Under the pieces are notes generated by a model, which saw only the letters and a program-made list of their open reading frames with translations, was not told the origin of the DNA and searched no databases. Of a stretch of DNA of 17,810 nt, positions 2,108 through 15,575 are shown piece after piece (the stretch's first letter is position 1; each line of letters starts with the position of its first letter). Origin of the DNA: a virus (Duplodnaviria; Heunggongvirae; Uroviricota; Caudoviricetes). Both the position numbers and the translations under genes were made by a program. The stretch lies in IMG/VR virus record IMGVR_UViG_2541047874_000006; one strand, written 5' to 3'.

Positions 2108-2111
2108 ATAC

Positions 2112-2145
2112 ATCCCCACCTTTACATAAGTGTGGGGATTTTTTA
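2112..2145 (+). terminator. Intrinsic terminator after the lysis cassette
   Basis: Stem ATCCCCAC (2112-2119) pairs with GTGGGGAT (2132-2139), followed by TTTTTT (2139-2144), immediately after the stop codon at 2105-2107. Confidence 0.6.
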
Positions 2146-2253
2146 TAGCCATTCAATTTTTTCTCTAAATCACATTAAAAGATTCTTCACCTTCACTGCT
2201 TCAGAATACATTTCAACGATAACGAAGTGAGCAGTAATTAAGGAATACCCTAT

Positions 2254-2709
2254 ATGGAAATTTTATCTGTAATTAATTCTGTTGTGACCAGATTACGTGA
2301 ACAGAATCCCGAAATGGACGTATTTATTTCATCGGTTGATGCCAATAAATATATTCCGCAGACGCAGCAAGTTACAGTGATTATTAATTATAGCGGTTCT
2401 CTATTTGCCATGCCTGAAAGCAGTGATGCCCTCGTGCAACAGCAAACGCTCCGTTTAACTGCCACCGTTATTGTTGGCAAAAATTGTGACGCGTTAAACG
2501 CACTGGATCGCATACGCAGCGCATTGGGGGGGATCCAGCTTCCTGATTGCGAGCGTCTTCTTTGGCTTGAAACAGAAATCAATGCAGGCGAGAGCGGTGG
2601 TTTCTGCCGCTACATCCTGGAAATGGCGACCAGCTCGCTGTTTATCGCGAAACGGGAAAGCACGGACCTTACCCTGCTTACTGAAGTTAATTACGAGGAA
2701 ACTGAATGA
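2254..2709 (+). CDS. Phage tail-associated protein (tail completion/terminator-like, Mu gp37 position)
   Basis: 151-aa ORF that opens the tail operon, with AAGGA upstream; stop overlaps the next start (ATGA). Assignment by position relative to the sheath gene. Confidence 0.45.
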   Translation: MEILSVINSVVTRLREQNPEMDVFISSVDANKYIPQTQQVTVIINYSGSLFAMPESSDALVQQQTLRLTATVIVGKNCDALNALDRIRSALGGIQLPDCERLLWLETEINAGESGGFCRYILEMATSSLFIAKRESTDLTLLTEVNYEETE

Positions 2710-2903
2710 AATACATCTACAACGGCCCGGCAAGCGGCGTCACCCTTGCCGACGGACAAGAAATCTTATTGTGGCCGAACAGTGAAATTGATCTGCCAGA
2801 AGAAAACGAGTGGGTTATGACCATGATTGCCCGCAATCACCTGACTCCTGTCATCACTCAGGAAGAACAAAATAACGGAGAGGAAATTGTACATGGCAGC
2901 TAA
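2706..2903 (+). CDS. Small phage protein upstream of the sheath gene (Mu gp38 position)
   Basis: 65-aa ORF translationally coupled to both neighbours; acidic C-terminus. Function not recognisable from sequence alone. Confidence 0.4.
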   Translation: MKYIYNGPASGVTLADGQEILLWPNSEIDLPEENEWVMTMIARNHLTPVITQEEQNNGEEIVHGS

Positions 2904-4317
2904 TTACCTGCACGGTGTAGAAACCATTGAAATTGAAACCGGTCCGCGCCCGGTTAAAGCGGTAAAATCCGCTGTAATCGCTTTAATCGGTAGTGCACCA
3001 TGCGGTCCGGTAAACAAACCAACATTGTGCCTTTCTGAAAGCGATGCCGCGCAGTTTGGCTCGACTCAGGCTAACTTTACTATCCCGCAGGCGCTGAAGG
3101 CGATTTATGACCACGGCGCCGGTACGGTGGTGGTGATTAACGTACTGGATCCGGCAAAACATGGCTCCAGCATCAGCAATGAGAGTATCACTTTTGATTC
3201 CAACAACCAGGCAAAACTGGCTCATCGTGCGGTGCGCAATGTCGTCCTGAAACCCTCTTCAACATCAGCCACTACGTATAGCAGCGCAGCGTTTCATGTT
3301 GATGAACAAACAGGAATAATCACTCGTGCAGAAACTGAGATCCCTGCCGGAGCGAAAGTTTGCGCCTATTACTCATGGGCCGATCCAACAAAAGTTACCG
3401 CAGCCGATATTATTGGCGCCGTTAATACCGCAGGCGATCGCACGGGGATGAAACTGCTACAGGATACCTATAACCTGTATGGTTTCTACGCCAAAATCCT
3501 GCTTGCTCCCGTTTTCTGTACGCAAAAATCGGTCACCACCGAACTGATTGCTCAGGCGGAAAAACTCGGTGCTATCGCCTACATTGACGCCCCAATCGGT
3601 ACTACATTCCAGCAGGTACTGGCTGGTCGCGGCTCGAAAGGCGCAATCAACTTCAACACCAGTTCTGACCGTGCGCGTTTGTGCTATCCGCACGTCAAAG
3701 TTTATGACGGCTCAACCAACCAGGAAGTTCTCGAACCGCTATCTTCACGCGCTGCCGGACTGCGTGCCAAAGTAGACCTGGAGAAAGGTTTCTGGTGGAG
3801 CAACTCAAACCAGGAAATTCAGGGCATTATCGGTATCGAACGTTCACTTTCCGCAATGGTTGATGACCCGCAAAGTGAAGTGAATCAGCTCAACGAAAAC
3901 GGCATTACCACTGTTTTCAATAGTTACGGCTCTGGTCTGCGTTTATGGGGCAACCGCACTGCGGCATGGCCAACCGTGACCCATATGCGTAACTTTGAAA
4001 ACGTTCGCCGCACGGGTGATGTGATTAACGAGTCGATCCGTTATTTCAGCCAGCAGTATATCGATATGCCGATTAATCAGGCACTAATTGATGCCCTGAC
4101 CGAGTCGGTAAATACCTGGGGCCGTAAGCTGATTGCCGACGGCGCACTGCTTGGCTTTGAGTGCTGGTACGATCCGGCGCGAAATTCACCGACCGAACTC
4201 AGTGCCGGGCATTTATTGCTGAGCTATAAATTCACCCCGCCACCGCCGCTGGAACGTCTGACGTTTGAAACTGAAATTACCTCTGAATATTTAGTCTCTC
4301 TGGAGAGCAATAGCTAA
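2893..4317 (+). CDS. Contractile tail sheath protein
   Basis: About 474 aa with the conserved sheath N-terminus (ANYLHGVETIEIETGPRPV...SAVIALIGSAP) and a C-terminal LRLWGNRT-type segment; start taken as ATG 2893 after GGAGAGGA, not the TTG at 2887 used in the ORF track. Confidence 0.9.
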   Translation: MAANYLHGVETIEIETGPRPVKAVKSAVIALIGSAPCGPVNKPTLCLSESDAAQFGSTQANFTIPQALKAIYDHGAGTVVVINVLDPAKHGSSISNESITFDSNNQAKLAHRAVRNVVLKPSSTSATTYSSAAFHVDEQTGIITRAETEIPAGAKVCAYYSWADPTKVTAADIIGAVNTAGDRTGMKLLQDTYNLYGFYAKILLAPVFCTQKSVTTELIAQAEKLGAIAYIDAPIGTTFQQVLAGRGSKGAINFNTSSDRARLCYPHVKVYDGSTNQEVLEPLSSRAAGLRAKVDLEKGFWWSNSNQEIQGIIGIERSLSAMVDDPQSEVNQLNENGITTVFNSYGSGLRLWGNRTAAWPTVTHMRNFENVRRTGDVINESIRYFSQQYIDMPINQALIDALTESVNTWGRKLIADGALLGFECWYDPARNSPTELSAGHLLLSYKFTPPPPLERLTFETEITSEYLVSLESNS

Positions 4318-4841
4318 TGGCTGGAAAAATTCAAATTAACCGTATTACCAATGCCAATATTTATCTCGATGGTAATAACCTTTTAGGTCGTGCAACCGAA
4401 ATTAAATTACCGGATGTCAGTTTAATTATGCAGGAGCATAAAGCACTGGGCATGGTCGGCAAAATCGAACTCCCGGCAGGTTTCGATAAACTGGAAGGGG
4501 AAATTAAATGGAACTCCTTTTATCAAGACGTCATGCGTAAAACGGCAAACCCGTGGCAGGCGGTAGCATTACAGTGCCGCTCCAGTATTGATTGCTATAA
4601 CTCCCAGGGGAAAGCGAATCAATTAGCGTTAGTCACTCATTTGACTGTCATGTTTAAAAAGAATCCATTGGGAACATTTAAACAGAATGAAAACCCGGAA
4701 TTCAGCAGCGCCTTTGGTTGTACCTATATTAAACAGGTGGTCGATGGTGAAACGCTGCTGGAACTGGATTACCTGGCGAATATTTTCCGCGTTAACGGCG
4801 TGGATCAATTAAGTACCTATCGCAATAACATCGGTGGCTAA
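4317..4841 (+). CDS. Tail tube protein
   Basis: 174 aa immediately after the sheath gene with TAATG stop/start overlap; size and position typical of the tube protein of Mu/P2-type contractile tails. Confidence 0.8.
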   Translation: MAGKIQINRITNANIYLDGNNLLGRATEIKLPDVSLIMQEHKALGMVGKIELPAGFDKLEGEIKWNSFYQDVMRKTANPWQAVALQCRSSIDCYNSQGKANQLALVTHLTVMFKKNPLGTFKQNENPEFSSAFGCTYIKQVVDGETLLELDYLANIFRVNGVDQLSTYRNNIGG

Positions 4842-4891
4842 GTTATTCGGGGCTACGGCCCCGATTTCCGCATGACCAATAAGGATACAAA

Positions 4892-5209
4892 ATGAAAGAA
4901 CATTATACCTTACAGTTCCCGTTTACTTCAGCGGCGGGAGACGTAATTAACACTCTGCAATTACGTCGCCTGAAAGTAAAAGATATGCGCAACGCGCGCC
5001 GGATCAGCGAAAAACCAGAAGAATGGGATGAACCGCTAATGGCTGCAATGACCGGACTGGTGCCAGAAGATTTAGCTGAAATGGATTTGCTGGATTACCA
5101 GGCATTGCAGAAACGATTTCAATCCATGCTTAGCGTGGCTACAGAATCCGCCACTGTTATGGCAAGCGATGGCGTTACTGGCGAGATGGTTTCGCTTTCC
5201 GCCCAGTGA
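4892..5209 (+). CDS. Tail assembly chaperone (P2 gpE / Mu gp41 position)
   Basis: 105-aa acidic protein between tube and tape measure; AAGGA 6 nt upstream; an overlapping alternate frame is open to 5297 (see findings). Confidence 0.65.
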   Translation: MKEHYTLQFPFTSAAGDVINTLQLRRLKVKDMRNARRISEKPEEWDEPLMAAMTGLVPEDLAEMDLLDYQALQKRFQSMLSVATESATVMASDGVTGEMVSLSAQ

Positions 5210-5284
5210 GATAGACGCCCTTACCGTCGATGACTTTAGCAACTGGCTGGATGAAGCCAACGCCCAAATAAAAATCGAATATGA

Positions 5285-5307
5285 CTCGCAGACCTGATGT
5301 CTGCGAG
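5285..5307 (+). other. Stable RNA hairpin (perfect 9-bp stem CTCGCAGAC/GTCTGCGAG, 5-nt loop)
   Basis: Perfect inverted repeat read directly from the sequence; overlaps the stop of the alternate-frame extension and is followed by TTT and, further on, a T8 run at 5344-5351. Confidence 0.5.
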
Positions 5308-5398
5308 TTTCCCAAGCCCGTCAGGTTTATTTCTTCCCTGCCCTTTTTTTTAGAAAAATAACCAGCGGGCCATTATCAATATTTAAAGAGAAACAATT

Positions 5399-7759
5399 TT
5401 GGCCAACGATATTATTACCCAGCTTCAGGCGCGTAATGAGACGTTGACGCAGGCAATAGCCCGTTACGGCTCACTCAACGCCAGAACATTGTTAACTCTC
5501 TCTACTCAGCAAGCGACAGTTATCAAACTAACGCAGCGACTTGCCGATTCCGCTCTCCGCCTGGAGGAAAATAGCCGCAGCCGCGCTAATCTGATGGAGA
5601 AAACCCAAACATTTGCCGGGCAATTTAGCAAAGTATTCAATGTTGAAGCCCCCGACTGGAAGTTGCCGTATGAGTTTCAGGACAATATGGTCAATATGGC
5701 GACCAAAGGTGGGATGAGTGATGCCACTCGCGAGACGCTCAGCCTTAATCTGCGCGACTGGAGTATGGATTTTAACCAGCAGCAGACCACGTTACAGTCC
5801 GCCGCTCTGACCTTAGTTGAAGGCAACATATCGTCTTTGCAGGATCTCAACCGCTATATGCCCGAGATCGCCAAAGCCGCCACCGCCACGCGCGACAGCG
5901 CCGAAACATGGGCGAAAGCCGCGCTCGCGACTCATGATCGACTGAATATTGCCCCGGAAAATTTCCACGCTGCGCAAAACATGATGTACAGCGTTACCAA
6001 AAGCGGTGGGCCTGCCATTGCCGAACAAACGCAGTGGATAGAGAAATTTGCAGGTAAAACCGGCGCTCAGGGTCTGGAAGGTATGGCTGAACTGACCGCC
6101 ACCATGCAGATCGCCATGAAAAACGGTGCCAGCGCCAGTGCAGCGGCGGAGAATTTCGACCATTTTCTACAAACCACATTTTCGAAAAAAACCGATAACT
6201 GGTTCGCCAGCCAGGGCGTCGATCTGCAAGGTTCTCTGCTGGAGCATCAGCAAAACGGTATGGGTGTTAGCGAAGCTATGACTCATATCGTGCAAATGCA
6301 GCTTGAGAAGATGAATCCGGCGATCCTCGATACCTTCAAACGCACCATGCAGATTGAAGATTTATCTGCCCGCAGCAATGCGCTGCAATCGATGGTGACG
6401 CAGTTTAATCTGGGCGAAATGTTCGGCGATGCGCAAACGGTGGAATTCCTGGCCCCTATGCTGGCGAACATGGAAGAGTATCGCCAGCTAAAAGCCTCTG
6501 CCATGCAAGCCACCAGCAAGAATCTGATTGATGCCGACTTTTCTGCGCAAATGGCTTCGCCCATTGAACAGACTAAAGCGTTACAACTGGCGTTAAATGA
6601 TTTATGGCTCAGCATTGGCTTGCAGCTTATGCCGGCGATTGGCGAGCTGGCGCAAAGCCTTGCGCCGGTTATTCGCCAGTTCAGCGCCTGGCTACGCGAA
6701 CACCCGGCACTAGTGCAAAACATTGCGAAAATCGTCGGGGCGATTTGGCTGTTTAACGGTGCGCTGAATGTTTTAAAGCTGGGCGCGAACTTCATCGCCT
6801 CGCCGTTTATTCGTCTGGTCGATATCTTCCTGAAAGTCAGGGCAAGTCTGGCGCTCGGAGGCGCAGCGAGTAAGGTGCTATCGGCGGTTAAGTCATTGGG
6901 TGGCGGCGCAAAATGGCTAACGCAACTGCTTGGTCGTGGCCTGAGCGGAGCATTGAAACTGGTTGGTCGGACCGTTCTCTCACTAGGCCGGGTGCTACTG
7001 ATGAATCCCATTGGTCTGGTCATCACTGCGATTGCGGGCGCGGCTTATCTGATTTATCGCAACTGGGAACCTATCACCAGGTTCTTTTCCGCCATCTGGA
7101 AACGTATTACCACGGCCTTTGACGGTGGCATTGCAGGTATTAGCCGGTTGATTCTCGACTGGTCGCCACTGGGGCTGTTCTACAGCGCCTTTTCCGGTGT
7201 GATGAATTGGTTTGGTGTTGAGATGCCTGCGAGTTTTAGCGAGTTCGGCAGCAATATACTGGGTAGCCTGGCCGACGGCATAATGAATGCTTTCCCCGCT
7301 CTGAAAGGCATTATTGATCAGGTCAAAAACGCCATGCCAGACTGGCTAAAAGCCACAATGGGGATCGGCACAGAAGCATCGGCTGCGACTGTTACAGGCA
7401 CGACTAATACCGCATCAGTCTCCCCCGCGACCGTTGTTCCAGGCGTTGCCGGTGCGCTTTTAACGCCGCCTGTGGGCAAACAACTCGCGCCATCCAGCAA
7501 AACGACAACGCCGTCATCGGCGCCAGTGGCAAAACCCGCGTCGGCCTCTTTACCAGGTAAATCCGTAACCAAACCGGCGACGCTACCCCCCCGTTCCCCA
7601 GGAAAAGTCCAGGTGAATTTTTCGCCACAAATTACCGTGCAGGGTAACGGACAAAACACCACTAAAGACATTCAGAACGTGTTGACGATGAGTAAACGCG
7701 AACTGGAAAGAATGATTAACGACGTAATGGCGCAGCAACAGCGCCGGGGGTATGCCTGA
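5399..7759 (+). CDS. Tail tape measure protein
   Basis: 786 aa, coiled-coil N-terminus, hydrophobic central segments, Pro/Ser/Thr-rich C-terminal region; apparent TTG start at 5399 with AAAGAG upstream; located between chaperone and baseplate genes. Confidence 0.85.
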   Translation: MANDIITQLQARNETLTQAIARYGSLNARTLLTLSTQQATVIKLTQRLADSALRLEENSRSRANLMEKTQTFAGQFSKVFNVEAPDWKLPYEFQDNMVNMATKGGMSDATRETLSLNLRDWSMDFNQQQTTLQSAALTLVEGNISSLQDLNRYMPEIAKAATATRDSAETWAKAALATHDRLNIAPENFHAAQNMMYSVTKSGGPAIAEQTQWIEKFAGKTGAQGLEGMAELTATMQIAMKNGASASAAAENFDHFLQTTFSKKTDNWFASQGVDLQGSLLEHQQNGMGVSEAMTHIVQMQLEKMNPAILDTFKRTMQIEDLSARSNALQSMVTQFNLGEMFGDAQTVEFLAPMLANMEEYRQLKASAMQATSKNLIDADFSAQMASPIEQTKALQLALNDLWLSIGLQLMPAIGELAQSLAPVIRQFSAWLREHPALVQNIAKIVGAIWLFNGALNVLKLGANFIASPFIRLVDIFLKVRASLALGGAASKVLSAVKSLGGGAKWLTQLLGRGLSGALKLVGRTVLSLGRVLLMNPIGLVITAIAGAAYLIYRNWEPITRFFSAIWKRITTAFDGGIAGISRLILDWSPLGLFYSAFSGVMNWFGVEMPASFSEFGSNILGSLADGIMNAFPALKGIIDQVKNAMPDWLKATMGIGTEASAATVTGTTNTASVSPATVVPGVAGALLTPPVGKQLAPSSKTTTPSSAPVAKPASASLPGKSVTKPATLPPRSPGKVQVNFSPQITVQGNGQNTTKDIQNVLTMSKRELERMINDVMAQQQRRGYA

Positions 7760-8712
7760 TGTATGCCGTTTTAGGAGAGATTGAATTTAAGGTTGTCACA
7801 TTCTGGGACGGCTTTAAAAGCACAATGGGCGTGGATTACGCCACACATGCCCGTATTGAAGGCAAACCTGGCGTGCAGTTTATTGGCGATAAGCTGGACA
7901 TGCTGGCGCTGGAATTTTCCCTGCACAGCCAGTTTTGCCAACCCACAACAGAGCTGAATCGACTGCGTGAAGCCATGCTTGCCCACAAAGCAATGGCGCT
8001 GGTGTTTGGCAACGGTGATTATCGCGGCTGGTTTGTAATTACAGAGTTAACCGCCACTCACCAGCACACCGATCCCTGGGGCAATGTCATTGCCCAAAGC
8101 GGAACAATGTCGCTCCAGGAGTATACCGGCGATCCGAAAAACCCACTCCTGCCCCCGGCGATTACCACCCAGGAGCCTAATATTGACGAAAAGGCGAGCG
8201 ATTTTCCGGACAAGGTGGAGTCCTGGTTGGATCAGATATTGAACGCCATTGAAGAAGGTATGCGCAAAGCCAAAGAGATGCTCGATGAACTGGCGCAATC
8301 CATTGAAGATATTAAAAAAACAGTGGCAAAGGTTAAAGCACTGATTAAAGAGGCCAAAGCGTTAAAAGAAAAGTGTGAAAAGATAATTACGTCGTTGAAA
8401 AAGACTATCGATGCCATCGAAACCCTGTTTAAACAGCCGATGGATCTGCAAACGCTGGCAGGATTACCAAAAGCGTTGTCGGCGCAGATTAAAGCATTGC
8501 TGGGTAGCCTGCCGGGTATCCGCGACTGCGCCAAAGACGCCGGGACACTGGTTGACCATGCACAAGAACTGTTTGGCAGCATCACCAGCGCCATCGCCGA
8601 AGCAACTTTCGATAAAGCCACAACGTTGGTTGAGCAGGCGCGTACAACGGTACAGCAAACCACTCCCGCAGTGACTCAGCTCGCTGCCGCGACCATTACG
8701 AGGAGCTGGTAA
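7759..8712 (+). CDS. DNA circularization protein N-like tail protein (Mu gpN family)
   Basis: 317 aa; position after the tape measure with ATGA overlap; coiled-coil C-terminal half. Confidence 0.7.
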   Translation: MYAVLGEIEFKVVTFWDGFKSTMGVDYATHARIEGKPGVQFIGDKLDMLALEFSLHSQFCQPTTELNRLREAMLAHKAMALVFGNGDYRGWFVITELTATHQHTDPWGNVIAQSGTMSLQEYTGDPKNPLLPPAITTQEPNIDEKASDFPDKVESWLDQILNAIEEGMRKAKEMLDELAQSIEDIKKTVAKVKALIKEAKALKEKCEKIITSLKKTIDAIETLFKQPMDLQTLAGLPKALSAQIKALLGSLPGIRDCAKDAGTLVDHAQELFGSITSAIAEATFDKATTLVEQARTTVQQTTPAVTQLAAATITRSW

Positions 8713-8921
8713 TGCGATACCTTGAACATATCACCACCGACGGCGAACGCTGGGATAACCTGGCATGGCATTACTACGGTGATGCACTGGCTTATGAACG
8801 CATTATCGCCGCCAATCCACATGTCGCCATTTATCCGGTACTGCCTGCCGGTATTCAGCTCATTATTCCGGTCATTACCGTCAACAAGACCGTATCGGAG
8901 ATCCCACCATGGCTGAGATAA
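8712..8921 (+). CDS. Tail protein X-like (LysM-like small tail protein)
   Basis: 69 aa; pattern D.L....YYGD.....ERIIAANP......LPAG..L.IP resembles the P2 gpX family as recalled; TAATG overlap with the upstream gene. Confidence 0.65.
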   Translation: MRYLEHITTDGERWDNLAWHYYGDALAYERIIAANPHVAIYPVLPAGIQLIIPVITVNKTVSEIPPWLR

Positions 8922-9949
8922 GCGTAACTGGCGGCGTCTTTGCCACGCTCGCGCCCATTTTTACCCTCTGGTATGGGCATAAAGATATCACTTATGACAT
9001 CACGCCTTATGTCACCAGCATCAGTTACCAGGACAGTATTAAAAACGAGTCGGATACCATCGCGATTACACTGGATGACACCGATGGACGCTGGATAAAA
9101 GAGTGGTATCCCGGCAAAGGCGATACGCTGGCGCTGCACATAGGTTATCAGGGGGAAAAACTGCTCGATTGTGGTCAATATATCATTGATAAAATTGACA
9201 TTTCAGCACCACCTTCCACGGTAAATATTGATGGCATCGCCACTTCCGTCAATCAGGCGCTGCGCACCCGTAACAGTCAGGGCTTTGAAGAGACAACGCT
9301 TTCAGCCATCGCCAGCCGTATCGCGCAAACTCACGGCCTGACGCTGGTGGGCAAAATCGAGCCGCTGACGATTGACCGGGTGACACAGTACGGCGAAACC
9401 GATGTCGGATTTCTCAAGCGCCTGGCCAGCGAATATGGCTATGCGGTAAAGGTGACCACCAAAGAACTGATTTTTTCGCATTTACCCACGCTGCGCTGCC
9501 TGGCGCCGGTGAAAAAGATCGACCGCAAAGACGTTTCGCATTTCACCTTCAAAGATACCATTAACCGCATCTACAAAAACGCCACCGTACAGCATCAAAA
9601 TAGTAAGAAAAAAGAACTGGTTATCTACACTCACGACAGCCAGAAAAAGCCGTCTGCCCGTGGAGTCGGCACCAGTGCCGACACGCTGAAACTGAACAGT
9701 CGGGCGCCGGACGTTGGCGCGGCGCAGGCAAAGGCCAACGCCGCGCTCGACAGCCACAACGAATATCAACAAACCGGAACGCTCAGGATGATGGGCTGCC
9801 CGGAACTGACGGCAGGCAATAAAATCGAGCTAACCGATTTTGGTGTACTTTCCGGTCAGTGGCTGATTGATAAATCGACTCACAGTTTTGTGCGCAGCGG
9901 CTATATCACTGAAATCGACATTTCACGCGGGCCAGCAACCAGCCAGTAA
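8909..9949 (+). CDS. Baseplate hub protein (P2 gpD / Mu gpP-like)
   Basis: 346 aa at the position of Mu P / P2 D; overlaps the upstream gene by 13 nt. Confidence 0.75.
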   Translation: MAEISVTGGVFATLAPIFTLWYGHKDITYDITPYVTSISYQDSIKNESDTIAITLDDTDGRWIKEWYPGKGDTLALHIGYQGEKLLDCGQYIIDKIDISAPPSTVNIDGIATSVNQALRTRNSQGFEETTLSAIASRIAQTHGLTLVGKIEPLTIDRVTQYGETDVGFLKRLASEYGYAVKVTTKELIFSHLPTLRCLAPVKKIDRKDVSHFTFKDTINRIYKNATVQHQNSKKKELVIYTHDSQKKPSARGVGTSADTLKLNSRAPDVGAAQAKANAALDSHNEYQQTGTLRMMGCPELTAGNKIELTDFGVLSGQWLIDKSTHSFVRSGYITEIDISRGPATSQ

Positions 9950-9958
9950 GGAGGCAAT

Positions 9959-10660
9959 ATGAAAGGAGTAACCCGGCAAACGGGGATTATCAGCGATATT
10001 GACGAAACCAGCGTTCGGGTGCGGGTCACGCTACCAGAGTGTGACAATCTGAAGAGTAACTGGCTTGCGGTGCTGCAGCGCAATTCTCAGGACAATAAGG
10101 ATTACTGGCTACCGGATATGGGCGAACAGGTGGAAGTTCTGCTGGATGATAACGGTGAAGATGGCGTGGTGCTGGGCGCAGTATATTCAACGGTAGACAC
10201 TGCGCCAGTAGCATCGCGCGACAAACGCTATGTCCAGTTTTCTGATGGCGCAGCGTTTGAATATGACCGCAGCACCCACCAGCTTACGATTAATGGTGGC
10301 ATCGAAAAAATCGTGATTGAGGTTATTGACCGTACCAGCCTGACATCGCCCAACGTTGAGGTTAAAGCCCAACACGTCACCGTGACTTCCGACACTGTTG
10401 ATGTGAAAGCCACCGATGTCAGCATTGAAGCCAGTAAGGTCGATGTTAAAGCGGCAGCAGTGACGGTAGATGCGCCCATGAGCACCTTTACCGGCAACGT
10501 CACGGTGATGAAAAAACTCACCTGGCTTGGTGGCATGGCAGGAAGTGGAGGCATCGGCAACGCCGCCACGATAACCGGCAATGTCAACGTGATTGGTAAC
10601 GTTCAGGCCAGCGGCACATTGCAGGACAGCGGTGGCAACTCCAACCACCATTCACACTGA
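9959..10660 (+). CDS. Baseplate spike/assembly protein V-like (Mu gp45 family)
   Basis: 233 aa; N-terminal region with the GEQVEVLLDDNGEDGVVLGAVY motif typical of gpV-type spikes, then repeated V.VKA..V.V strands suggesting a beta-helix. Confidence 0.75.
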   Translation: MKGVTRQTGIISDIDETSVRVRVTLPECDNLKSNWLAVLQRNSQDNKDYWLPDMGEQVEVLLDDNGEDGVVLGAVYSTVDTAPVASRDKRYVQFSDGAAFEYDRSTHQLTINGGIEKIVIEVIDRTSLTSPNVEVKAQHVTVTSDTVDVKATDVSIEASKVDVKAAAVTVDAPMSTFTGNVTVMKKLTWLGGMAGSGGIGNAATITGNVNVIGNVQASGTLQDSGGNSNHHSH

Positions 10661-10665
10661 CGTTT

Positions 10666-10695
10666 AACCCGCCTGATGGCGGGTTTTCTCTTTTT
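10666..10695 (+). terminator. Intrinsic terminator-like hairpin inside the baseplate gene block
   Basis: AACCCGCC (10666-10673), loop TGAT, GGCGGGTT (10678-10685), then TTCTCTTTTT; lies in the 98-bp gap between the spike gene and the wedge gene. Confidence 0.5.
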
Positions 10696-10758
10696 AATCA
10701 ATCAGTTTTCTAAATCGCTTTAATATCCCCGCCGCCTGTTCAGGGCGAAAATACCCTC

Positions 10759-11118
10759 ATGAACACGAAAACACGCCCCTCTACGCTGCACTGGCAACCC
10801 GCCTTGCAGCGGCCTGAAGAATACGTCTGCGGACTGGATGATATTCACCAGGCAATACACATCATTCTGCGCACACCGCGCGGCAGTGATCCCCACAGAC
10901 CGCTGTTTGGCAGCAACTTGTGGCACTACATCGATTATCCCATCGAGCGGGCGATCCCGCATGTGGTAAGGGAGTCGGTAGAGGCCATCCGCCAGTGGGA
11001 ACCGCGCTGCCGGTTGCTGAAGGTGACACCGGTAATCGACGGGGAACATCTGACGTTACGTGTGCAATGGCGCGCCGCTGACGGCGTAATCAACTCAACG
11101 GAGGTGTTATGGCGATAG
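10759..11118 (+). CDS. Baseplate wedge protein, GPW/gp25 family
   Basis: 119 aa with the conserved segment GLDDIHQAIHIILRTPRGSDPHRPLFGSNLWHYID typical of P2 gpW / T4 gp25-like proteins. Confidence 0.8.
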   Translation: MNTKTRPSTLHWQPALQRPEEYVCGLDDIHQAIHIILRTPRGSDPHRPLFGSNLWHYIDYPIERAIPHVVRESVEAIRQWEPRCRLLKVTPVIDGEHLTLRVQWRAADGVINSTEVLWR

Positions 11119-12224
11119 CCGAACCCGATTTTATTGACCGCGATCCTGCGCAAATTACCAGCGAGATGATTGCGCAGTACGAAGATGCCAGCGGCAAAAA
11201 GCTCTACCCGGCACAGGCCGAGCGGTTGCTGATTGACCTTTTTGCCTATCGTGAAAACCTTGTACGCATCGCCATTCAGGAAGTGGCGAAACAGAATCTG
11301 GTCGCGTATTCCCGCGCGCCAATGCTGGATTATTTAGGTGAGCTGGTGGGCGTTCACCGCTTACCTGCACAACCGGCAAAAACCACGTTGCAGTTTTCGG
11401 TAGCCAGTAAGAATCGAAATAACATTCTAATTCCACAAGGAACACGTGCCAGCGCCTCTGACAGCGTGATGTTTGCTACCGATGAAGATGTTCTGATTCC
11501 GGCGGGAAGTTTGCATATAGCCGTTCCCGCCACCAGTCTGGCAACAGGCGAAGCGGGCAATGGCTGGCAGCCTGCACAGATTAGCGCCCTTGTTGACAGG
11601 ATTGGTTATTACGATATCAGCGTGACCAACCTGACGGCCTCAACCGGCGGCTGCGGTGAAGAGAGCGATGACGCACTACGCCAGCGGATCCAACTGGCGC
11701 CGGAAAGTTTCAGCAATGCGGGCAGCTATGGTGCCTACCGCTTTCATACGCTTTCCGTAAGCCAGTCGATTATTGACGTCGCGGTACTGGGGCCGGACGA
11801 AGGATTGCCAGAAGGCTGCGTGGAGATCTACCCGCTAACGCTGAATGGTCTGCCGGGCGTGGAACTGCTCGCGCAAATTGAACTGGAGGTTAGCAAGGAG
11901 AAAAAACGTCCGCTGACCGACAAAGTAAGTGCGAAATGCGCCGTTAGGGTGCCGTATGAAATCCGTGCGCAGCTCACACTGTTTACCACTGCCGATCAGG
12001 AGACAACGCTGGCTGCGGCGCGTAAAGCGATTAGCCTCTGGACGCAACAGCGGCAGAAACATCTGGGACAGGACATTGTGCCAAACCAGATAATCAAAGT
12101 GTTACAAGTCGATGGTGTCTATGACGTTGCGCTGAATATACCTACAAAACGTATTTTGCAGGCGCATGAGTGGGCGGAATGCACCGCGATAGACGTCACG
12201 ATTGCCGGAGTCAGCGATGGATAA
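11109..12224 (+). CDS. Baseplate J-like protein (Mu gp47 / P2 gpJ family)
   Basis: 371 aa; GGAGG upstream; position and size match baseplate J; overlaps both neighbours. Confidence 0.8.
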   Translation: MAIAEPDFIDRDPAQITSEMIAQYEDASGKKLYPAQAERLLIDLFAYRENLVRIAIQEVAKQNLVAYSRAPMLDYLGELVGVHRLPAQPAKTTLQFSVASKNRNNILIPQGTRASASDSVMFATDEDVLIPAGSLHIAVPATSLATGEAGNGWQPAQISALVDRIGYYDISVTNLTASTGGCGEESDDALRQRIQLAPESFSNAGSYGAYRFHTLSVSQSIIDVAVLGPDEGLPEGCVEIYPLTLNGLPGVELLAQIELEVSKEKKRPLTDKVSAKCAVRVPYEIRAQLTLFTTADQETTLAAARKAISLWTQQRQKHLGQDIVPNQIIKVLQVDGVYDVALNIPTKRILQAHEWAECTAIDVTIAGVSDG

Positions 12225-12582
12225 ATTGCTGCCGCCACCGCCGCTTGCCAGCGATGAGCGTTTTTCAACTCTGGCAAATATCGCTGCCGAGCGTTTTGCC
12301 CAACTCGATCTGACAGCGTTGATGGTTTATCTGGTAGACCTGGTTGATGCTTCGGCATTACCTGCCCTTGCAGAACAATTTCACGTTCAGGGGCTGGAAG
12401 GTTGGTTATTTACCACTGATGAACGGGAGAAGCGCGATTTAATTAAGCAAGCCATTGAGCTGCATAAATATAAAGGAACGATTTGGGCGGTACGGCGGGT
12501 GCTGGAAATACTTTCGCTACCAGGAACTATTTCAGAATGGTTTGAATATGGGGGGAAGGCTTATTTTTTAAGGTTGATATAG
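12202..12582 (+). pseudogene. Tail protein I-like (Mu gp48 / P2 gpI family), N-terminal part; frame discontinuity at a G6 run
   Basis: Probable start ATG 12217 (MDKLLPPPPLA, GGAG upstream). The frame ends at 12582 while the -1 frame is open from 12546 and continues as the next ORF. Possible frameshifted gene or two genes. Confidence 0.5.
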
Positions 12583-12587
12583 AGCTG

Positions 12588-12848
12588 GTGGATAAAGGCA
12601 TGGATGAAAACCTTTTCAATAATCTGGTAGAACTCATTCATGAATATAAAAACACACGTTCAAAACTGGAAGCATTAATTGTCTGGATCATTAACCAAAG
12701 TGCTATTCCTGTTATTGGCTGTGCACTTTATGGTGGTGAACTGACGACGGTTTTACCTTTCCAGATACGGGAAGTACAGCAAAACACATCAATCTATTAC
12801 GGAACAGGGCAATGGAGCCTTGAAATTACATCTATTTACCCGGAGTAA
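12588..12848 (+). CDS. Hypothetical protein, or C-terminal portion of the tail protein I-like gene
   Basis: 86-aa ORF in the -1 frame relative to the preceding gene; lower GC by eye; stop lies inside the RBS-ATG spacer of the tail fiber gene. Confidence 0.4.
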   Translation: MDKGMDENLFNNLVELIHEYKNTRSKLEALIVWIINQSAIPVIGCALYGGELTTVLPFQIREVQQNTSIYYGTGQWSLEITSIYPE

Positions 12849-12850
12849 TT

Positions 12851-14620
12851 ATGGATAATGAGTTTTATACTCTACTCACCGACAGAGGGATGGCAAAAAT
12901 TGCCAATGCTCTGGCGGATAAAAAACAGCTTCATCTACAAAAAATGGCTGTTGGCGACAGCGGAGGGCAATATTATGAACCCACCGTCCGCCAAACTAAA
13001 TTACGTCATGAAGTATGGCGTGGTGATTTAAATACATTAACAGTTGCGCCCAATAATCCTAACTGGTTAATTGCGGAACTTGTACTGCCCGAAAATATCG
13101 GCGGCTGGTATGTACGTGAAGTCGGCGTTTTTGATACTGACGGTGAACTCATTGCTATCGGTAAATTCCCGGAGTCGTATAAACCGCTATTACCCGGCGG
13201 CAGCGGTAAGCAAGTTTGCATTCGTCTCATTATGGAAGTTTCCAATACGACAGCGGTAACACTCACCGTTGACCCCAGTATTGTGCTGGCAACACGGGAT
13301 TATGTTGATTCGCAACTGGATGAACATGAACGTTCGACTAATCACCCTGATGCTACGTTATCGCAAAAAGGCTTTACGCAGTTAAGTAACGCCACTGACA
13401 GTGATGACGAAACCAAAGCGGCTACGCCAAAAGCGGTGAAAGCGGCGATGATTGAGGCACGAAATCATCGTCATACCTGGAGTCAGATTACTGATATTCC
13501 GGATAGTACGCTGACGCAAAAAGGGATTGTGAAGCTTAGTAACGCGATTGATAGCACCAGCACGACAGAGGCGGCAACACCGAGCGCGGTGAAGGCGGCG
13601 TATGACCTGGCGAATAGTAAGGCTGCGGGAAACCATACTCACCCATGGGGACAGATTACGGGTGTTCCAGACGGCACCCTGTCGCAAAAAGGGATTGTGA
13701 AGCTTAATAATGCGACGGATAGCAACAGTACGACGGAGGCGGCTACGCCGAGTGCGGTGAAAGCGGCGTATGACCTGGCAAATGGAAAGGCTGCAGGTAG
13801 TCATACGCACCCCTGGGGGCAGATTACGGGTATTCCGGATGGCACCCTGACGCAAAAAGGGATTGTGAAGCTTAGTAATGCGACGGATAGCAACAGTACG
13901 ACGGAGGCGGCTACGCCAAGTGCGGTGAAGGCGGCGTATGATAAAGCCTGTGAGGCATATAGCAGGATTAACAATTCCTCATTCCGCTTCTATACATCAA
14001 ATGGAACATTTACCGTGCCGACTGGAGTAACAGAAATACTTCTGGAAATGTCAGGCGGTGGTGGGGGCGGTGGTGGTGGGGCAATCGCCGGAGGCTCGAC
14101 AGTGGTACAACCTAAATTTGGACTAGGCGGCGGAGCAGGAAAACCTGGTGAAATTATAATTACTCCTCTCACAGTTAAACCCGGAGATATGTACTCCTTT
14201 ACAGTTGGGGCTGGAGGGGCTGGAGGGGCTGGAGGCACACAGGTAAGACCAGAGAGTGGTTCGACTTGGATTCCCAGAGATGAATTAGGACAAGCAGGTA
14301 TTCCTGGAGCGGCATCATATTTTTCCTCACTTACTGCTTCCGGTGGTGCTGGTGGGGAAGGAGGGAAAATAATAATTATCGACTCCCCGTACGCCAACTC
14401 AGTAGGAGAGGTTCCCAAAACATACTCCAGCAACGGTGAAACTGCAGTAAATACTCCTTATGGAAAAGGGGGATTGGGAGGAGCGAATAGTGATGGCCAA
14501 TCCGGCTCTGGTTATGGTGCGGGAGGTGGGGGAGGGGCTGGTTTAGGATCAACTTCGATAAACCACGCTGCCCGCAATGGCGGTCGTGGCTTGGGTGGTT
14601 ATATAAAAATTTTATGGTGA
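12851..14620 (+). CDS. Tail fiber protein with internal tandem repeats and a glycine-rich C-terminal domain
   Basis: 589 aa; N-terminus (MAVGDSGG...EVWRGDL...LIAELVLPENIGGWYVREVGVFD...FPESYKP) matches the conserved N-terminal domain of Mu S / P2 H / E. coli Stf fibers; four repeats of TL(S/T)QKGIVKLSNATDS..TTEAATPSAVKAAYD; C-terminal 190 aa rich in Gly runs. Confidence 0.85.
   Translation: MDNEFYTLLTDRGMAKIANALADKKQLHLQKMAVGDSGGQYYEPTVRQTKLRHEVWRGDLNTLTVAPNNPNWLIAELVLPENIGGWYVREVGVFDTDGELIAIGKFPESYKPLLPGGSGKQVCIRLIMEVSNTTAVTLTVDPSIVLATRDYVDSQLDEHERSTNHPDATLSQKGFTQLSNATDSDDETKAATPKAVKAAMIEARNHRHTWSQITDIPDSTLTQKGIVKLSNAIDSTSTTEAATPSAVKAAYDLANSKAAGNHTHPWGQITGVPDGTLSQKGIVKLNNATDSNSTTEAATPSAVKAAYDLANGKAAGSHTHPWGQITGIPDGTLTQKGIVKLSNATDSNSTTEAATPSAVKAAYDKACEAYSRINNSSFRFYTSNGTFTVPTGVTEILLEMSGGGGGGGGGAIAGGSTVVQPKFGLGGGAGKPGEIIITPLTVKPGDMYSFTVGAGGAGGAGGTQVRPESGSTWIPRDELGQAGIPGAASYFSSLTASGGAGGEGGKIIIIDSPYANSVGEVPKTYSSNGETAVNTPYGKGGLGGANSDGQSGSGYGAGGGGGAGLGSTSINHAARNGGRGLGGYIKILW
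13340..13960 (+). repeat. Four tandem coding repeats (153-168 bp period) inside the tail fiber gene
   Basis: CGCAAAAAG occurs at 13362, 13515, 13683 and 13851; copies 3 and 4 are nearly identical at the nucleotide level. Confidence 0.7.
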
Positions 14621-14624
14621 ACAG

Positions 14625-15230
14625 ATGACACGATATGCGTATTACCATCCGGTAACCTTTGAGGTTATTGACTGGATAGATGCAGCCTCTTTTACTGTGG
14701 AATTACCTGATTCAGTAATTCCTGTAGATGATGAGCAGTGGCAGTTAAAAGATAAACCATGCTGGATATGTCTTGACCCATTCAAAATTATCACCACACC
14801 ACCGCCGGGTGATTTTTACATCTTAGAGAATGATAAATGGGTATATGACAAAACATTATTTACCATTGCACTTGAGAATACCAAGGCACAGGTTACACAG
14901 GAAATAAAAAATCGACGTGATGAAATAACGGTAGATTACATCATCATCAACAACCATCACTTCCACAGTGATACAAATAGCCGTATCCAACAGCTCTCGC
15001 TCACTAAAATGGGAGCGGAGAAAAAAATCCTTCCAGGTTTAATGTGGAAAACTAAAAATAACGGTCTGATTGAGTTAACCAACGAAATCGCTTCCCAGTT
15101 TGAATCGGTAACAATGGATCACGATATGCGCCTGTTCGCCAACGCCCAGCGCCATATCGCGGCGGTGGAAGCTCTGGACGATATTCAGGCGGTGCTCGAC
15201 TACGACTACTCCACAGGCTGGCAACCATGA
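14625..15230 (+). CDS. Tail fiber assembly protein (Tfa; Mu gpU / P2 gpG family)
   Basis: 201 aa immediately after the tail fiber gene; AT-rich; conserved C-terminal region typical of Tfa chaperones. Confidence 0.75.
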   Translation: MTRYAYYHPVTFEVIDWIDAASFTVELPDSVIPVDDEQWQLKDKPCWICLDPFKIITTPPPGDFYILENDKWVYDKTLFTIALENTKAQVTQEIKNRRDEITVDYIIINNHHFHSDTNSRIQQLSLTKMGAEKKILPGLMWKTKNNGLIELTNEIASQFESVTMDHDMRLFANAQRHIAAVEALDDIQAVLDYDYSTGWQP

Positions 15231-15553
15231 GTAAAACCACTGTCTGGCTCGCTTGTTATAAGGGCCGAACAGAGCACCGTGGTATTGCCCGACTGGCTGA
15301 CTGGCTTACCCGTAAAATCACACGCGGTAGTTATTCCCACTGTGAATTAGCCGTTAAGCATGGTGAAAATAGTTACCTTTGTTACTCTGCATCACTGCGC
15401 GATCGCGGTGTACGCGAAAAGATAATGCCATTGCCAGCGGATAAGTGGGATATGCTGCCGCTCCAGGCCAGCCTTCAGGATGTGGAAACTTTTTTCCGTA
15501 AACATGATGGCAAAAAATATGACTGGCGCGGAGCATTAGGAGAGCCTGTTTAA
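15227..15553 (+). pseudogene. Gene truncated by IS insertion (5' portion; last three codons and stop supplied by the IS end)
   Basis: ATGA overlap with tfa; the ORF runs into the IS terminal repeat, which contributes residues EPV and the stop. The original reading frame resumes after the IS at 16865. Confidence 0.6.
15534..15541. repeat. Target-site duplication CATTAGGA (left copy)
   Basis: Identical 8-mer directly flanks both IS ends (15534-15541 and 16857-16864). Confidence 0.65.
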
Positions 15554-15575
15554 GATTCTGTGTAAATGCCTTTTC

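What the first reader, a model, noticed from the sequence alone, without database searches (positions are those of the whole stretch)
12546..15230. Low-GC host-range cassette with a compositional junction inside the I-like gene
By eye the sequence switches from the fairly GC-balanced composition of the sheath-to-J genes to AT-rich composition at about 12546, through the 86-aa ORF, the fiber N-terminus and the tfa gene. The tandem-repeat part of the fiber is GC-richer again. This points to a mosaic host-range module acquired by recombination, with its left junction where the reading frame breaks.
Basis: inference. Interest (0 to 1): 0.4.

Follow-up and report, generated by a model that had tools for sequence, protein, structure and literature searches.

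The report
Swappable tail-fibre specificity cassette, AT-rich
The AT-rich stretch is the exchangeable target-recognition module (end of baseplate protein I, the tail fibre, first half of its chaperone) of a headless phage-tail gene cluster, a familiar kind of mosaicism, and the broken reading frame beside it is a separate one-base deletion.

Summary
The compositional shift is real, but it is neither sharp nor located at 12546. Total GC falls from 0.55 to 0.43 with the best step near 12400. GC at third codon positions (GC3) falls from 0.60 to 0.38 at the start of gene I, near 12261, and returns at about 14939, inside the chaperone gene rather than at 15230. The glycine-rich fibre tip looks GC-normal but has GC3 of 0.34. 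The fibre repeats and the chaperone's C-terminal half match the backbone.

Comparative data show a genuine exchangeable cassette. Two E. coli copies with 96–100% identical backbones collapse to 25–70% identity from window-equivalent 12577–12581 to about 14903–14934.

The AT-richness is shared by both cassette types and by most genera sampled. The window shows no divergence step there against its nearest relative, and no donor phage was found. This is old allelic exchange within one island family, not a recent foreign acquisition.

The frame break is a T7→T6 deletion. It is real, appearing on at least 22 contigs from independent runs, and is unrelated to the recombination. The whole is an ordinary mosaic specificity module in an apparently undescribed tailocin-like island.

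The parts
12217..12848 (+). Gene I (P2 gpI / gp7-like single-copy baseplate 'triplex' subunit). It is split here into a 121-aa ORF (ATG 12217 to TAG 12582) and the out-of-frame remainder (12567-12848, of which the 82/86-aa ORF is the C-terminal part).
   Evidence: The intact 210-aa homologue in E. coli A10 hits Pfam Tail_P2_I (E 5e-34, residues 9-148) and TIGR01634. It also matches R2-pyocin Tri2 PA0619, PDB 6u5b, at E 2.4e-7. Alignment A1 shows the split.
12550..12570 (+). Homopolymer pair G6 (12550-12555) and T6 (12564-12569). The T6 run is one base shorter than the T7 of all intact relatives and causes the frame break. It creates T_TTT_TTA (12564-12570) in the zero frame.
   Evidence: Alignment A1 and the sequence itself. 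The same T6 allele is in KOEGE 71 and in metagenome contigs that lack the IS, on at least 22 contigs in all. G5+T7 variants also exist.
12577..12581 (+). Left crossover point of the exchangeable cassette, as seen between relatives that share a backbone. It falls at residues 121/122 of protein I.
   Evidence: PSJ-42 vs strain 20 mismatch positions, alignment A1, protein identities, and the same position in the Superficieibacter pair.
12581..12848 (+). C-terminal part of I (type A allele). It is AT-rich (GC 0.39, GC3 0.35) and always co-inherited with the matching fibre N-terminus. Inferred to be the fibre-docking part.
   Evidence: Every listed row of both allele searches starts at this segment and runs into the fibre gene. 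The docking role is inferred from diffocin and phage E217 structures.
12851..13330 (+). Tail fibre, N-terminal tail-collar domain (residues 1-150 by Pfam), GC3 0.39.
   Evidence: Pfam Phage_tail_fib PF12571, E 5e-61. GC3.
13331..13945 (+). Tail fibre shaft with Phage_fiber_2 repeats (tandem 168-nt unit x 2.7 copies at 13484-13941). Composition matches the backbone (GC 0.537, GC3 0.53). Nested left junctions used by other relatives fall here (about 13450, 13770, 13940).
   Evidence: Pfam PF03406, E 7e-72, 4 stretches. TRF. Composition. Junctions.
13946..14620 (+). Tail fibre C-terminal glycine-rich domain, the presumed receptor-binding tip. Total GC is 0.50 but GC3 is 0.335. It is the most variable part among relatives.
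   Evidence: Sub-threshold Pfam Gly_rich_2 match (E 0.0027, 18.2 bits against a cut-off of 24.3). GC3. Identity to relatives is 0.3-0.5 except in the A10 type. The allele is in only 6 (+1 diverged) of 5426 E. coli genomes.
14625..14933 (+). Variable N-terminal half (residues 1-103) of the DUF4376 tail-fibre chaperone gene. AT-rich (GC 0.39, GC3 0.33) and swapped together with the fibre tip.
   Evidence: The right junction is at 14898-14934 in six of the eight relatives that resume homology. The GC3 step is at 14939.
14934..15230 (+). Conserved C-terminal half of the chaperone (most of the DUF4376 domain), with backbone-like composition. It serves as the right-hand homology anchor of the cassette.
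   Evidence: Pfam DUF4376, E 7e-13, residues 87-193. It is 99% identical in protein between cassette types and near-invariant across genera. GC3 is 0.59 and codon usage matches the backbone.
15227..15553 (+). Next island ORF, 151 aa when intact, truncated here to 108 aa by IS1414. It lies outside the cassette.
   Evidence: Metagenome contigs of the same clone have the intact 151-aa ORF.

Best explanation
The window carries the tail module of a head-less, Mor-regulated phage-tail island that looks like a tailocin. Coordinates 12581 to about 14933 are its exchangeable specificity cassette. The cassette consists of the C-terminal third of baseplate protein I, the whole tail fibre, and the first ~103 codons of a DUF4376 fibre chaperone.

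How it works:
- Two conserved sequence blocks act as homology anchors for allelic replacement by homologous recombination.
- The left anchor is the EWFEYGGKAYFFKVDI-coding block of gene I, ending at about 12580.
- The right anchor is the DUF4376-domain half of the chaperone gene, from about 14934.
- Shorter nested replacements use the fibre shaft repeats as an alternative left anchor and swap only the receptor-binding tip plus the chaperone N-domain.
- Because the chaperone's variable half directly abuts the fibre tip, one contiguous DNA segment carries all co-adapted parts: the I docking part, the fibre, and the chaperone specificity domain.

Composition: the cassette is AT-rich at synonymous sites. 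This is an old, family-wide property of the cassette pool, shared by alternative alleles and by most genera sampled. It is not a mark of recent import into this strain.

Frame break: it is an independent 1-nt deletion (T7 to T6) in a homopolymer that happens to lie in the left anchor block. It most likely inactivates gene I in this clone.

Shown here: the composition, the junction positions, the allelic replacement between near-identical backbones, and the reality of the frameshift. Inferred: the docking role of the I C-terminus, the recombination mechanism, and the tailocin function.
For: Composition:
- GC and GC3 steps and codon-usage deviation are confined to I through chaperone residue ~103, excluding the repeats.

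Replacement:
- PSJ-42 and strain 20 backbones are 96-100% identical in 120-nt windows. Identity collapses between window-equivalent 12577-12581 and about 14903-14934.
- Strain 20's cassette is collinear with that of Superficieibacter electus at backbone-level identity, so both allele classes are old.
- A Superficieibacter pair changes at the same place in gene I.
- The right junction recurs at 14898-14934 in six of the eight relatives that resume homology.
- Nested left junctions lie at about 13450, 13770, 13940 and 14067.
- 197 of 5426 complete E. coli genomes carry the island, one copy each, and 149 have the other cassette class.

Old composition:
- GC3 falls within gene I, and the fibre tip and chaperone N-half have low GC3, in E. 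coli of both types, Superficieibacter and Dryocola.

Protein identities:
- Tail_P2_I, tail-collar fibre with Phage_fiber_2 repeats, and DUF4376.
- I is homologous to pyocin Tri2 PA0619.
- The single-copy gp7-like triplex subunit links to the fibre in diffocin and phage E217 (PMC10996793; PMC10329688).
- DUF4376 proteins are experimentally supported fibre chaperones in Alteromonas phages V22 and A5 (PMC7289586 and PMC10579305).

Frameshift:
- T7 in all intact relatives and T6 here.
- The identical allele is in independent assemblies that lack the IS.
- The intact 210-aa protein I dominates, on thousands of contigs.
Against: - The compositional boundary on the left (12219-12528) does not coincide with the comparative junction (12577-12581). 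The N-terminal two thirds of I are already GC3-poor although they are not exchanged in the E. coli pair. Composition and exchangeability are therefore not strictly the same thing.
- The A-versus-B divergence boundary in gene I could partly reflect different functional constraint on the two halves of the protein, not only recombination.
- Lelliottia shows no GC3 drop.
- The fibre-docking role of the I C-terminus is inferred from other systems. In phage E217 the attachment loop is not C-terminal.
- No particle production or killing has been shown for this island.
- Which of the two cassette classes is ancestral on the E. coli backbone is unknown.
Confidence: 0.75

Rival explanations
1. One reading: the block 12546-15230 was recently imported into this lineage from an AT-richer phage or prophage. 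The frame break is the scar of the left recombination junction.
For: The synonymous-site composition and codon usage of the cassette are clearly unlike the backbone. Cassette replacement does occur in the family, with a junction about 10 nt from the frame break.
Against: - The same AT-rich pattern is present in both cassette classes and in most genera sampled.
- The window vs A10 has no divergence step at 12546-12580.
- The phage collection holds only 80%-identical Salmonella copies of the same island.
- The receptor-binding allele occurs only within this island in E. coli.
- The frame break is a homopolymer deletion within sequence otherwise identical to intact relatives.
- The composition returns to backbone at about 14939, not 15230.
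Confidence: 0.1
2. There is no horizontal exchange signal in the composition. The AT-richness reflects protein-level or expression constraints, or relaxed codon selection, on late baseplate and fibre genes. Examples are AT-rich amino-acid usage in I and the chaperone, or low expression.
For: The decline is gradual across I and begins in the non-exchanged N-terminal part. It is conserved across genera. GC at codon positions 1 and 2 is also lower in the I C-terminus and the chaperone N-half. The tube gene is also AT-rich.
Against: GC3 and synonymous codon usage deviate strongly. The right-hand compositional step (14939) coincides with the recombination junction (14903-14934) inside a single gene. 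Near-identical backbones carry cassettes that are only 15-64% identical in protein.
Confidence: 0.1
3. The frame break is functional. The T6 allele creates a T_TTT_TTA heptamer on which -1 ribosomal slippage (or transcriptional slippage) restores full-length I. Alternatively, the G6/T7 pair acts as a phase-variable on/off switch for particle assembly.
For: - T_TTT_TTA sits in the correct zero-frame register, and a -1 slip yields ...YF(L/F)KVDIE..., essentially the wild-type protein.
- The allele persists on at least 22 contigs, with all other tail genes intact in the metagenome copies.
- Independent 1-nt deletions occur in the T run on a 93.5%-identical backbone and in the adjacent G run.
Against: - There is no downstream stimulatory structure (z +1.4 and -0.8).
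- Intact relatives have T7 and a continuous ORF, on thousands of contigs, so the split is not the conserved state.
- Strain 4_1_47FAA also has a broken fibre gene, and KOEGE 71 has an IS in the next ORF. Both are consistent with decay.
- Runs of 6-7 are short for phase variation.
- Some Logan assemblies may carry homopolymer errors.
Confidence: 0.05

Closest known systems
Localized recombination of receptor-binding protein plus chaperone in R-type syringacins of Pseudomonas syringae (Baltrus et al. 2019, PMC6331570; reviewed in PMC12090994)
   Same: Both are chromosomal, head-less, phage-tail-derived clusters. Closely related backbones carry cleanly switched fibre and chaperone alleles, and a conserved upstream sequence acts as one recombination anchor.
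   Different: - In syringacins the fixed anchor is the fibre N-terminus and the downstream breakpoint varies. Here the fixed anchor is downstream, inside the chaperone gene at the start of the conserved half.
- Here the upstream breakpoints are nested, and the outermost lies inside baseplate gene I, so the fibre N-terminus and the I C-terminus are exchanged too.
- The chaperone is a DUF4376 protein.
- No killing data exist here.
Mosaic tail-fibre genes H and G of phage P2 and relatives (Haggard-Ljungquist et al. 1992, J Bacteriol 174:1462; cited from my own knowledge, not retrieved here)
   Same: The gene order J-I-fibre-assembly protein is the same. The fibre C-terminus and assembly gene are shared horizontally among unrelated phages and are compositionally distinct from the rest of the tail operon.
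   Different: As far as I recall, P2 gene I is not part of the mosaic block. P2 G is a classical Tfa, whereas here the chaperone is DUF4376 with a variable N-half and a conserved C-half.
R-type pyocin triplex subunit Tri2 (PA0619), fibre PA0620 and chaperone PA0621 (PDB 6u5b/6u5k)
   Same: Protein I is a sequence homologue of PA0619 (E 2.4e-7). The baseplate-fibre-chaperone gene order is the same.
   Different: From my own knowledge, pyocin R1-R5 subtypes differ in the fibre C-terminus and chaperone only. Here one allele class boundary lies in the Tri2 homologue itself.
DUF4376 tail-fibre chaperones of Alteromonas phages V22 (gp27) and A5 (gp9) (PMC7289586, PMC10579305)
   Same: Both have a C-terminal DUF4376 domain, are encoded immediately downstream of the fibre gene, and move horizontally together with the fibre.
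   Different: There is no detectable sequence relationship beyond the domain. The function of the enterobacterial protein is untested.
Invertible host-range segments (Mu G, P1 C, e14 P)
   Same: They also alternate a fibre C-terminus and its assembly protein.
   Different: There is no invertase gene and no oppositely oriented alternative fibre or chaperone ORFs. Only weak inverted repeats are present, the longest being 28 nt at 71% complementarity. Variation here is between genomes, not within one.

Membership tests
P2 gpI / Tail_P2_I (gp7-like single-copy baseplate wedge subunit) | Sequence match to the family models above the curated threshold | tested here: met
   PF09684: 117.6 bits against a cut-off of 20.6. 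TIGR01634: 54.1 bits against 30.05. Both were run on the intact A10 orthologue. The window's 121-aa ORF carries the PF09684 match.
P2 gpI / Tail_P2_I (gp7-like single-copy baseplate wedge subunit) | Position between the baseplate J gene and the tail-fibre gene | tested here: met
   J 11109-12224 (PF04865), I 12217-12848, fibre 12851-14620.
P2 gpI / Tail_P2_I (gp7-like single-copy baseplate wedge subunit) | Homology to a structurally characterised triplex subunit | tested here: met
   PA0619 Tri2, PDB 6u5b, E 2.4e-7, residues 44-154.
P2 gpI / Tail_P2_I (gp7-like single-copy baseplate wedge subunit) | Continuous open reading frame | tested here: not met
   T6 in place of T7 at 12564-12569 gives a stop at 12580-12582. 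The gene in this window is a frameshifted copy.
Tail-collar fibre with Phage_fiber_2 repeats | N-terminal PF12571 domain followed by PF03406 repeats | tested here: met
   PF12571 E 5e-61 (residues 1-150). PF03406 E 7e-72, 4 stretches.
DUF4376 tail-fibre chaperone | C-terminal DUF4376 domain above threshold | tested here: met
   PF14301: 49.5 bits against a cut-off of 25, residues 87-193.
DUF4376 tail-fibre chaperone | Encoded immediately downstream of the fibre gene | tested here: met
   Fibre stop at 14620, chaperone start at 14625.
DUF4376 tail-fibre chaperone | Required for fibre folding or activity | not testable with these tools
   Shown only for Alteromonas V22 gp27 (PMC7289586).
Classical tail-fibre assembly protein (lambda Tfa / P2 G / Mu U, Pfam Caudo_TAP) | Match to the Caudo_TAP model | tested here: not met
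   The Pfam scan at E <= 0.01 returned only DUF4376. 'tfa' is therefore a functional label here, not family membership.
R-type tailocin (domesticated head-less contractile tail cluster) | Complete tail and baseplate gene set plus a lysis cassette, without head, replication or integration genes, at a fixed chromosomal site | tested here: met
   Annotated E. coli copies run lysC | Mor, holin, transglycosylase, sheath ... J, I, fibre, DUF4376, hyp | RlaP nucleotidyltransferase, slipin. There is one copy per genome in 197 genomes.
R-type tailocin (domesticated head-less contractile tail cluster) | All structural genes intact in this window | tested here: not met
   Gene I is frameshifted and the adjacent ORF is cut by IS1414.
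R-type tailocin (domesticated head-less contractile tail cluster) | Production of bactericidal particles | not testable with these tools
   No paper on this island was found in the literature searches.
Localized-recombination specificity cassette (syringacin-like) | Abrupt loss of identity confined to the fibre and chaperone between otherwise near-identical clusters | tested here: met
   PSJ-42 vs strain 20.
Localized-recombination specificity cassette (syringacin-like) | Change of killing or host spectrum with the cassette | not testable with these tools
   Needs experiments.
Invertible host-range segment (Mu G-like) | Adjacent Din-family invertase, flanking inverted repeats, and an oppositely oriented alternative fibre end | tested here: not met
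   No such ORFs. The longest inverted repeat is 28 nt at 71% complementarity.
Programmed -1 ribosomal frameshift site | Slippery heptamer X_XXY_YYZ in the zero frame | tested here: met
   T_TTT_TTA at 12564-12570, with codons TAT TTT TTA.
Programmed -1 ribosomal frameshift site | Downstream stimulatory structure | tested here: not met
   Folds of 12571-12630 and 12571-12670 are no better than shuffles.
Programmed -1 ribosomal frameshift site | Two-frame architecture conserved among relatives | tested here: not met
   Relatives have T7 and a continuous 210-aa ORF.

The most novel reading that the evidence does not exclude
This is a previously uncharacterised enterobacterial R-type tailocin family, found in Escherichia, Salmonella, Citrobacter, Superficieibacter, Dryocola and Phytobacter.
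- Its killing specificity is exchanged as a three-part co-adapted module: the baseplate-adaptor C-terminus, the fibre, and the chaperone N-domain.
- The module is bounded by two dedicated conserved anchors, so the unit of exchange reaches into the baseplate itself.
- The G6/T7 homopolymer pair in the left anchor acts as a recurrent on/off (or slippage-rescued) switch for particle assembly.
Probability: 0.07. Interest if true: 0.6.

Novelty: new member of a known kind. Interest (0 to 1): 0.3.

Why it matters
Practical value: the work gives base-level boundaries (12581 and about 14933) for a natural plug-in specificity module. It also suggests that retargeting such a tail may require moving the C-terminus of the baseplate adaptor I together with the fibre N-terminus. 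That would matter for engineering tailocins against Enterobacteriaceae.

Evolutionary interest: a chaperone built as a variable N-half plus an invariant C-half gives the cassette a fixed right-hand recombination anchor. This is the mirror image of what is described for syringacins.

Method lessons:
- Total GC can hide a compositionally deviant segment. The glycine-rich fibre tip has normal GC but low GC3.
- A compositional boundary need not coincide with the recombination junction.

Otherwise this is a familiar kind of phage-tail mosaicism, sitting in a copy that has probably been inactivated.

Tried and rejected
- Whole-window binary segmentation of GC found change points only left of 2407 and none near 12546, because a trough is poorly captured by single splits. 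I replaced it with local step fits and window-distribution tests.
- Megablast of 12546-15230 against the phage collection gave only 80%-identical Salmonella copies of the same island.
- tblastn of the fibre tip gave no match, possibly because of the low-complexity filter.
- tblastn of the chaperone gave the same Salmonella records plus distant matches to the DUF4376 (C-terminal) part in Moraxella and Acidovorax phages and one uncultured phage. No donor lineage emerged.
- The scan of species-representative genomes did not contain the source. The source was identified by exact protein look-up as E. coli KOEGE 71 (186a), GCA_000459855.1.
- Sequencing error as the cause of the frame break is rejected. 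The same allele is in one isolate and in independent metagenome and SRA assemblies.
- A divergence step between the window and A10 at the I junction was not found. A window vs PSJ-42 step was not significant (log-likelihood ratio 3.9).
- A frameshift-stimulating RNA structure was not found.
- An invertible segment is rejected.
- Literature on this island in E. coli was not found.
- One paper search failed on a too-short term.

Full report
**Context.** The window is the tail half of a head-less phage-tail island.
- Its genes run in this order: a Mor-family activator, holin, transglycosylase, sheath, tube, tape measure, baseplate genes (D, V, W, J), gene I, a tail fibre, a DUF4376 protein and a small ORF. 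After these come an IS and a chromosomal nucleotidyltransferase gene.
- In annotated E. coli genomes the same island sits between lysC and the nucleotidyltransferase/slipin genes. It has no head, replication or integration genes.
- 197 of 5426 complete E. coli genomes carry it, one copy each.
- Relatives occur in other Escherichia species, Salmonella, Citrobacter, Superficieibacter, Dryocola, Phytobacter and Lelliottia.
- The window is 100% identical to E. coli KOEGE 71 (186a), assembly GCA_000459855.1.
- It is only about 92-93% identical to the copies in complete E. coli genomes.

**The observation.**
- Sheath-to-J has GC 0.516.
- GC falls to 0.38-0.42 around 12450-13050 and to 0.37-0.39 around 14600-15100. 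In between it is 0.54 in the fibre repeats and 0.50 in the fibre C-terminal domain.
- No 300-, 500- or 800-nt window in sheath..J is as AT-rich as these troughs.
- A single-step fit over 10759-13340 gives 0.548 to 0.427, with a log-likelihood ratio of 17.7. The 95% value from shuffles of the whole window is 5.3. The best position is near 12400, with a 2-unit support interval of 12055-12528.
- At third codon positions the picture is cleaner. The values are: backbone 0.565; I codons 1-61 0.46; I codons 62-116 0.40; I C-terminal part 0.35; fibre N-domain 0.39; fibre repeats 0.53; glycine-rich fibre C-domain 0.335; chaperone codons 1-103 0.33; chaperone codons 104-201 0.59.
- In the glycine-rich domain, a GC of 0.59 at codon positions 1 and 2 masks the low GC3.
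- The best GC3 step is at 12261 on the left (support 12219-12360) and at 14939 on the right (support 14876-14951).
- Synonymous codon usage of the cassette without the repeats differs from the backbone: G = 158 against 51 +/- 12, with 0 of 500 backbone blocks reaching it. The chaperone C-half does not differ: 34 against 31 +/- 9.
- So the shift exists and is significant. It begins at the start of gene I rather than at 12546, is graded, is interrupted by the repeats, and ends inside the chaperone gene rather than at 15230.
- Other AT-rich stretches exist in the window: 326-903 and 2066-2406 at GC 0.33, and the tube gene at 0.427.

**The frame break.**
- An alignment with three E. coli copies shows that the window has T6 (12564-12569) where all intact relatives have T7. 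The sequence around it is otherwise the same.
- Intact I is 210 aa and matches Tail_P2_I and TIGR01634.
- The 86-aa ORF is simply the out-of-frame C-terminus of I.
- The deletion is not a sequencing error. Two metagenome contigs are 100% identical to the window wherever they overlap it (island and right flank), lack the IS, and carry the same T6.
- The exact 82-aa product is on at least 22 contigs from independent runs.
- A different backbone, E. coli 4_1_47FAA at 93.5% identity, also has T6. Two assemblies have G5+T7, a deletion in the neighbouring G run.
- Intact 210-aa proteins dominate by far, on thousands of contigs.
- The T6 allele creates T_TTT_TTA in the zero frame, and a -1 slip there would restore I. 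However, there is no downstream structure, and related copies show further decay: a broken fibre gene in 4_1_47FAA and IS1414 in the next ORF here.
- I regard the break as a recurrent homopolymer lesion and most probably a pseudogene.

**Mosaicism.**
- E. coli PSJ-42 and strain 20 have backbones that are 96-100% identical in 120-nt windows.
- Their mismatches are sparse up to window-equivalent 12576 and dense from 12581-12582. Homology resumes at 14903-14934.
- In protein terms: J 99.5%, I residues 1-121 98.3%, I residues 122-end 42.7%, fibre 1-150 64%, shaft 57%, fibre tip 18%, chaperone N-part 15%, chaperone last 100 residues 99%, next ORF 95%.
- This is an allelic replacement of I C-terminus, fibre and chaperone N-half.
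- Strain 20's allele class (I of 238 aa, chaperone of 235 aa) is collinear with Superficieibacter electus at backbone-level identity.
- A Superficieibacter pair carrying the two classes changes at the same I position. Both classes are therefore old.
- In E. coli, 149 of the 197 islands have the strain-20 class. The window has the other class.
- Other relatives show nested left junctions at about 13450, 13770, 13940 and 14067. The right junction is at 14898-14934 in six of the eight relatives that resume homology. Phytobacter resumes at 15201 and Dryocola does not resume.
- In every listed row of both allele searches, the I C-terminus and the matching fibre N-terminus are found together.

**What the comparison does not show.**
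- The window against its nearest relative A10 has no divergence step at 12546-12580. The steps are at 11357-11645 (a 20%-divergent patch in J) and at 13498-14390.
- The AT-rich pattern is present in both classes and in Superficieibacter and Dryocola, but not in Lelliottia.
- The phage collection holds only 80%-identical Salmonella copies of the same island.
- The window's fibre-tip and chaperone allele is found in 6 (+1 diverged) of 5426 E. coli genomes, always inside this island.
- The composition therefore reflects an old property of the cassette pool, not a recent import. The exchange partners appear to be other copies of the same island family.

**Mechanism (inferred).**
- Protein I is homologous to Tri2 (PA0619) of the R2 pyocin.
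- In contractile systems, the single-copy gp7-like triplex subunit links the fibre to the baseplate. In diffocin its C-terminal region connects to the fibre (PMC10996793). In phage E217, gp45 holds the fibre N-terminus (PMC10329688).
- Co-exchange of the I C-terminus with the fibre N-terminus fits a docking pair that must stay matched.
- DUF4376 proteins are fibre chaperones in Alteromonas phages (PMC7289586, PMC10579305).
- Here the chaperone's variable half abuts the fibre tip, and its invariant half provides the right-hand homology anchor.
- The left anchor is the conserved block encoding EWFEYGGKAYFFKVDI. It contains the G6 and T7 runs.
- This explains why the frame break and the junction lie 12 nt apart without being causally linked. 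Both are properties of the last conserved block before the variable part.

**Comparison with known systems.**
- The closest described case is localized recombination of the fibre and chaperone in R-type syringacins (PMC6331570). There the fixed anchor is the fibre N-terminus and the downstream breakpoint varies. Here the polarity is reversed and the outermost breakpoint reaches into the baseplate gene.
- Mosaic, compositionally distinct fibre and assembly genes are classical for P2-like phages (my own knowledge).
- An invertible segment is excluded.
- The chaperone is not a classical Tfa.

**Verdict.**
- The feature is an ordinary but cleanly delimited specificity cassette in a tailocin-like island for which I found no literature.
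- In this strain the island is probably disabled by a homopolymer frameshift and an IS.

Noticed in passing
window 1-15553 (and L001-L003): The whole cluster is a tail-only island: Mor activator, holin, transglycosylase and a complete contractile tail and baseplate, with no head, replication or integrase genes. It sits at a fixed site next to lysC in 197 of 5426 complete E. coli genomes and also occurs in Salmonella, Citrobacter, Superficieibacter, Dryocola and Phytobacter. It looks like an R-type tailocin, and I found no paper describing it.
   Followed up: partly
window 15542-16856: An IS1414 (IS256 family) copy with about 30-nt imperfect terminal inverted repeats. It is inserted in the 151-aa ORF downstream of the chaperone gene and truncates it to 108 aa. 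Metagenome contigs of the same clone lack it, so the insertion is younger than the gene I frameshift.
   Followed up: yes
window 12550-12569; L076, L077, L084: Independent 1-nt deletions hit this homopolymer pair. T7 to T6 is seen on two backbones that are only 93.5% identical to each other. G6 to G5 is seen in two further assemblies. This is either a mutational hot spot or, for some SRA-derived assemblies, homopolymer sequencing error.
   Followed up: partly
window 11357-11645 (gene J): A 289-nt patch in baseplate gene J is about 20% divergent from all E. coli copies, against about 6% for the flanks. It has lower GC here (0.48 against 0.56-0.59 in relatives). It is a separate small mosaic tract.
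   Followed up: no
window 2108-2234 and 3165-3381: These are very divergent patches relative to E. coli A10. The first is 27-72% divergent and lies in an AT-rich intergenic stretch before the gp37-family gene. The second is 46% divergent and lies inside the sheath gene. Mosaicism is therefore not confined to the fibre region.
   Followed up: no
window 14934-15230: The C-terminal half of the DUF4376 chaperone is more conserved than the backbone. It is 99% identical in protein between cassette classes and near-invariant across genera, which suggests a constraint beyond fibre specificity. One possibility is interaction with a conserved partner.
   Followed up: partly
window 12369-12850 and 14391-15541: Against E. 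coli A10 these segments are only about 1-4% divergent, while the island average is about 6-7%. The flanking yjbD/rluF region of the same clone (L074) is only 85% identical to A10. This hints at recent gene-conversion tracts between otherwise diverged lineages.
   Followed up: partly
window 13946-14620: The fibre C-terminal domain is extremely glycine-rich (runs such as GGGGGGGG and GAGGAGGAGG) and has a sub-threshold Gly_rich_2 match. tblastn against the phage collection found nothing, possibly because of low-complexity masking. Its fold and receptor are unknown.
   Followed up: no
window 326-903: The divergent region between the Mor gene and the holin gene is the most AT-rich part of the window (GC 0.33). 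It is presumably the regulatory and promoter region of the late operon.
   Followed up: no
window 12235-12262 / 15141-15168 and 14303-14320 / 15450-15467: Two imperfect inverted repeats: 28 nt at 71% complementarity and 18 nt at 94%. The first pair brackets the cassette. With no invertase gene nearby they are probably chance matches.
   Followed up: no
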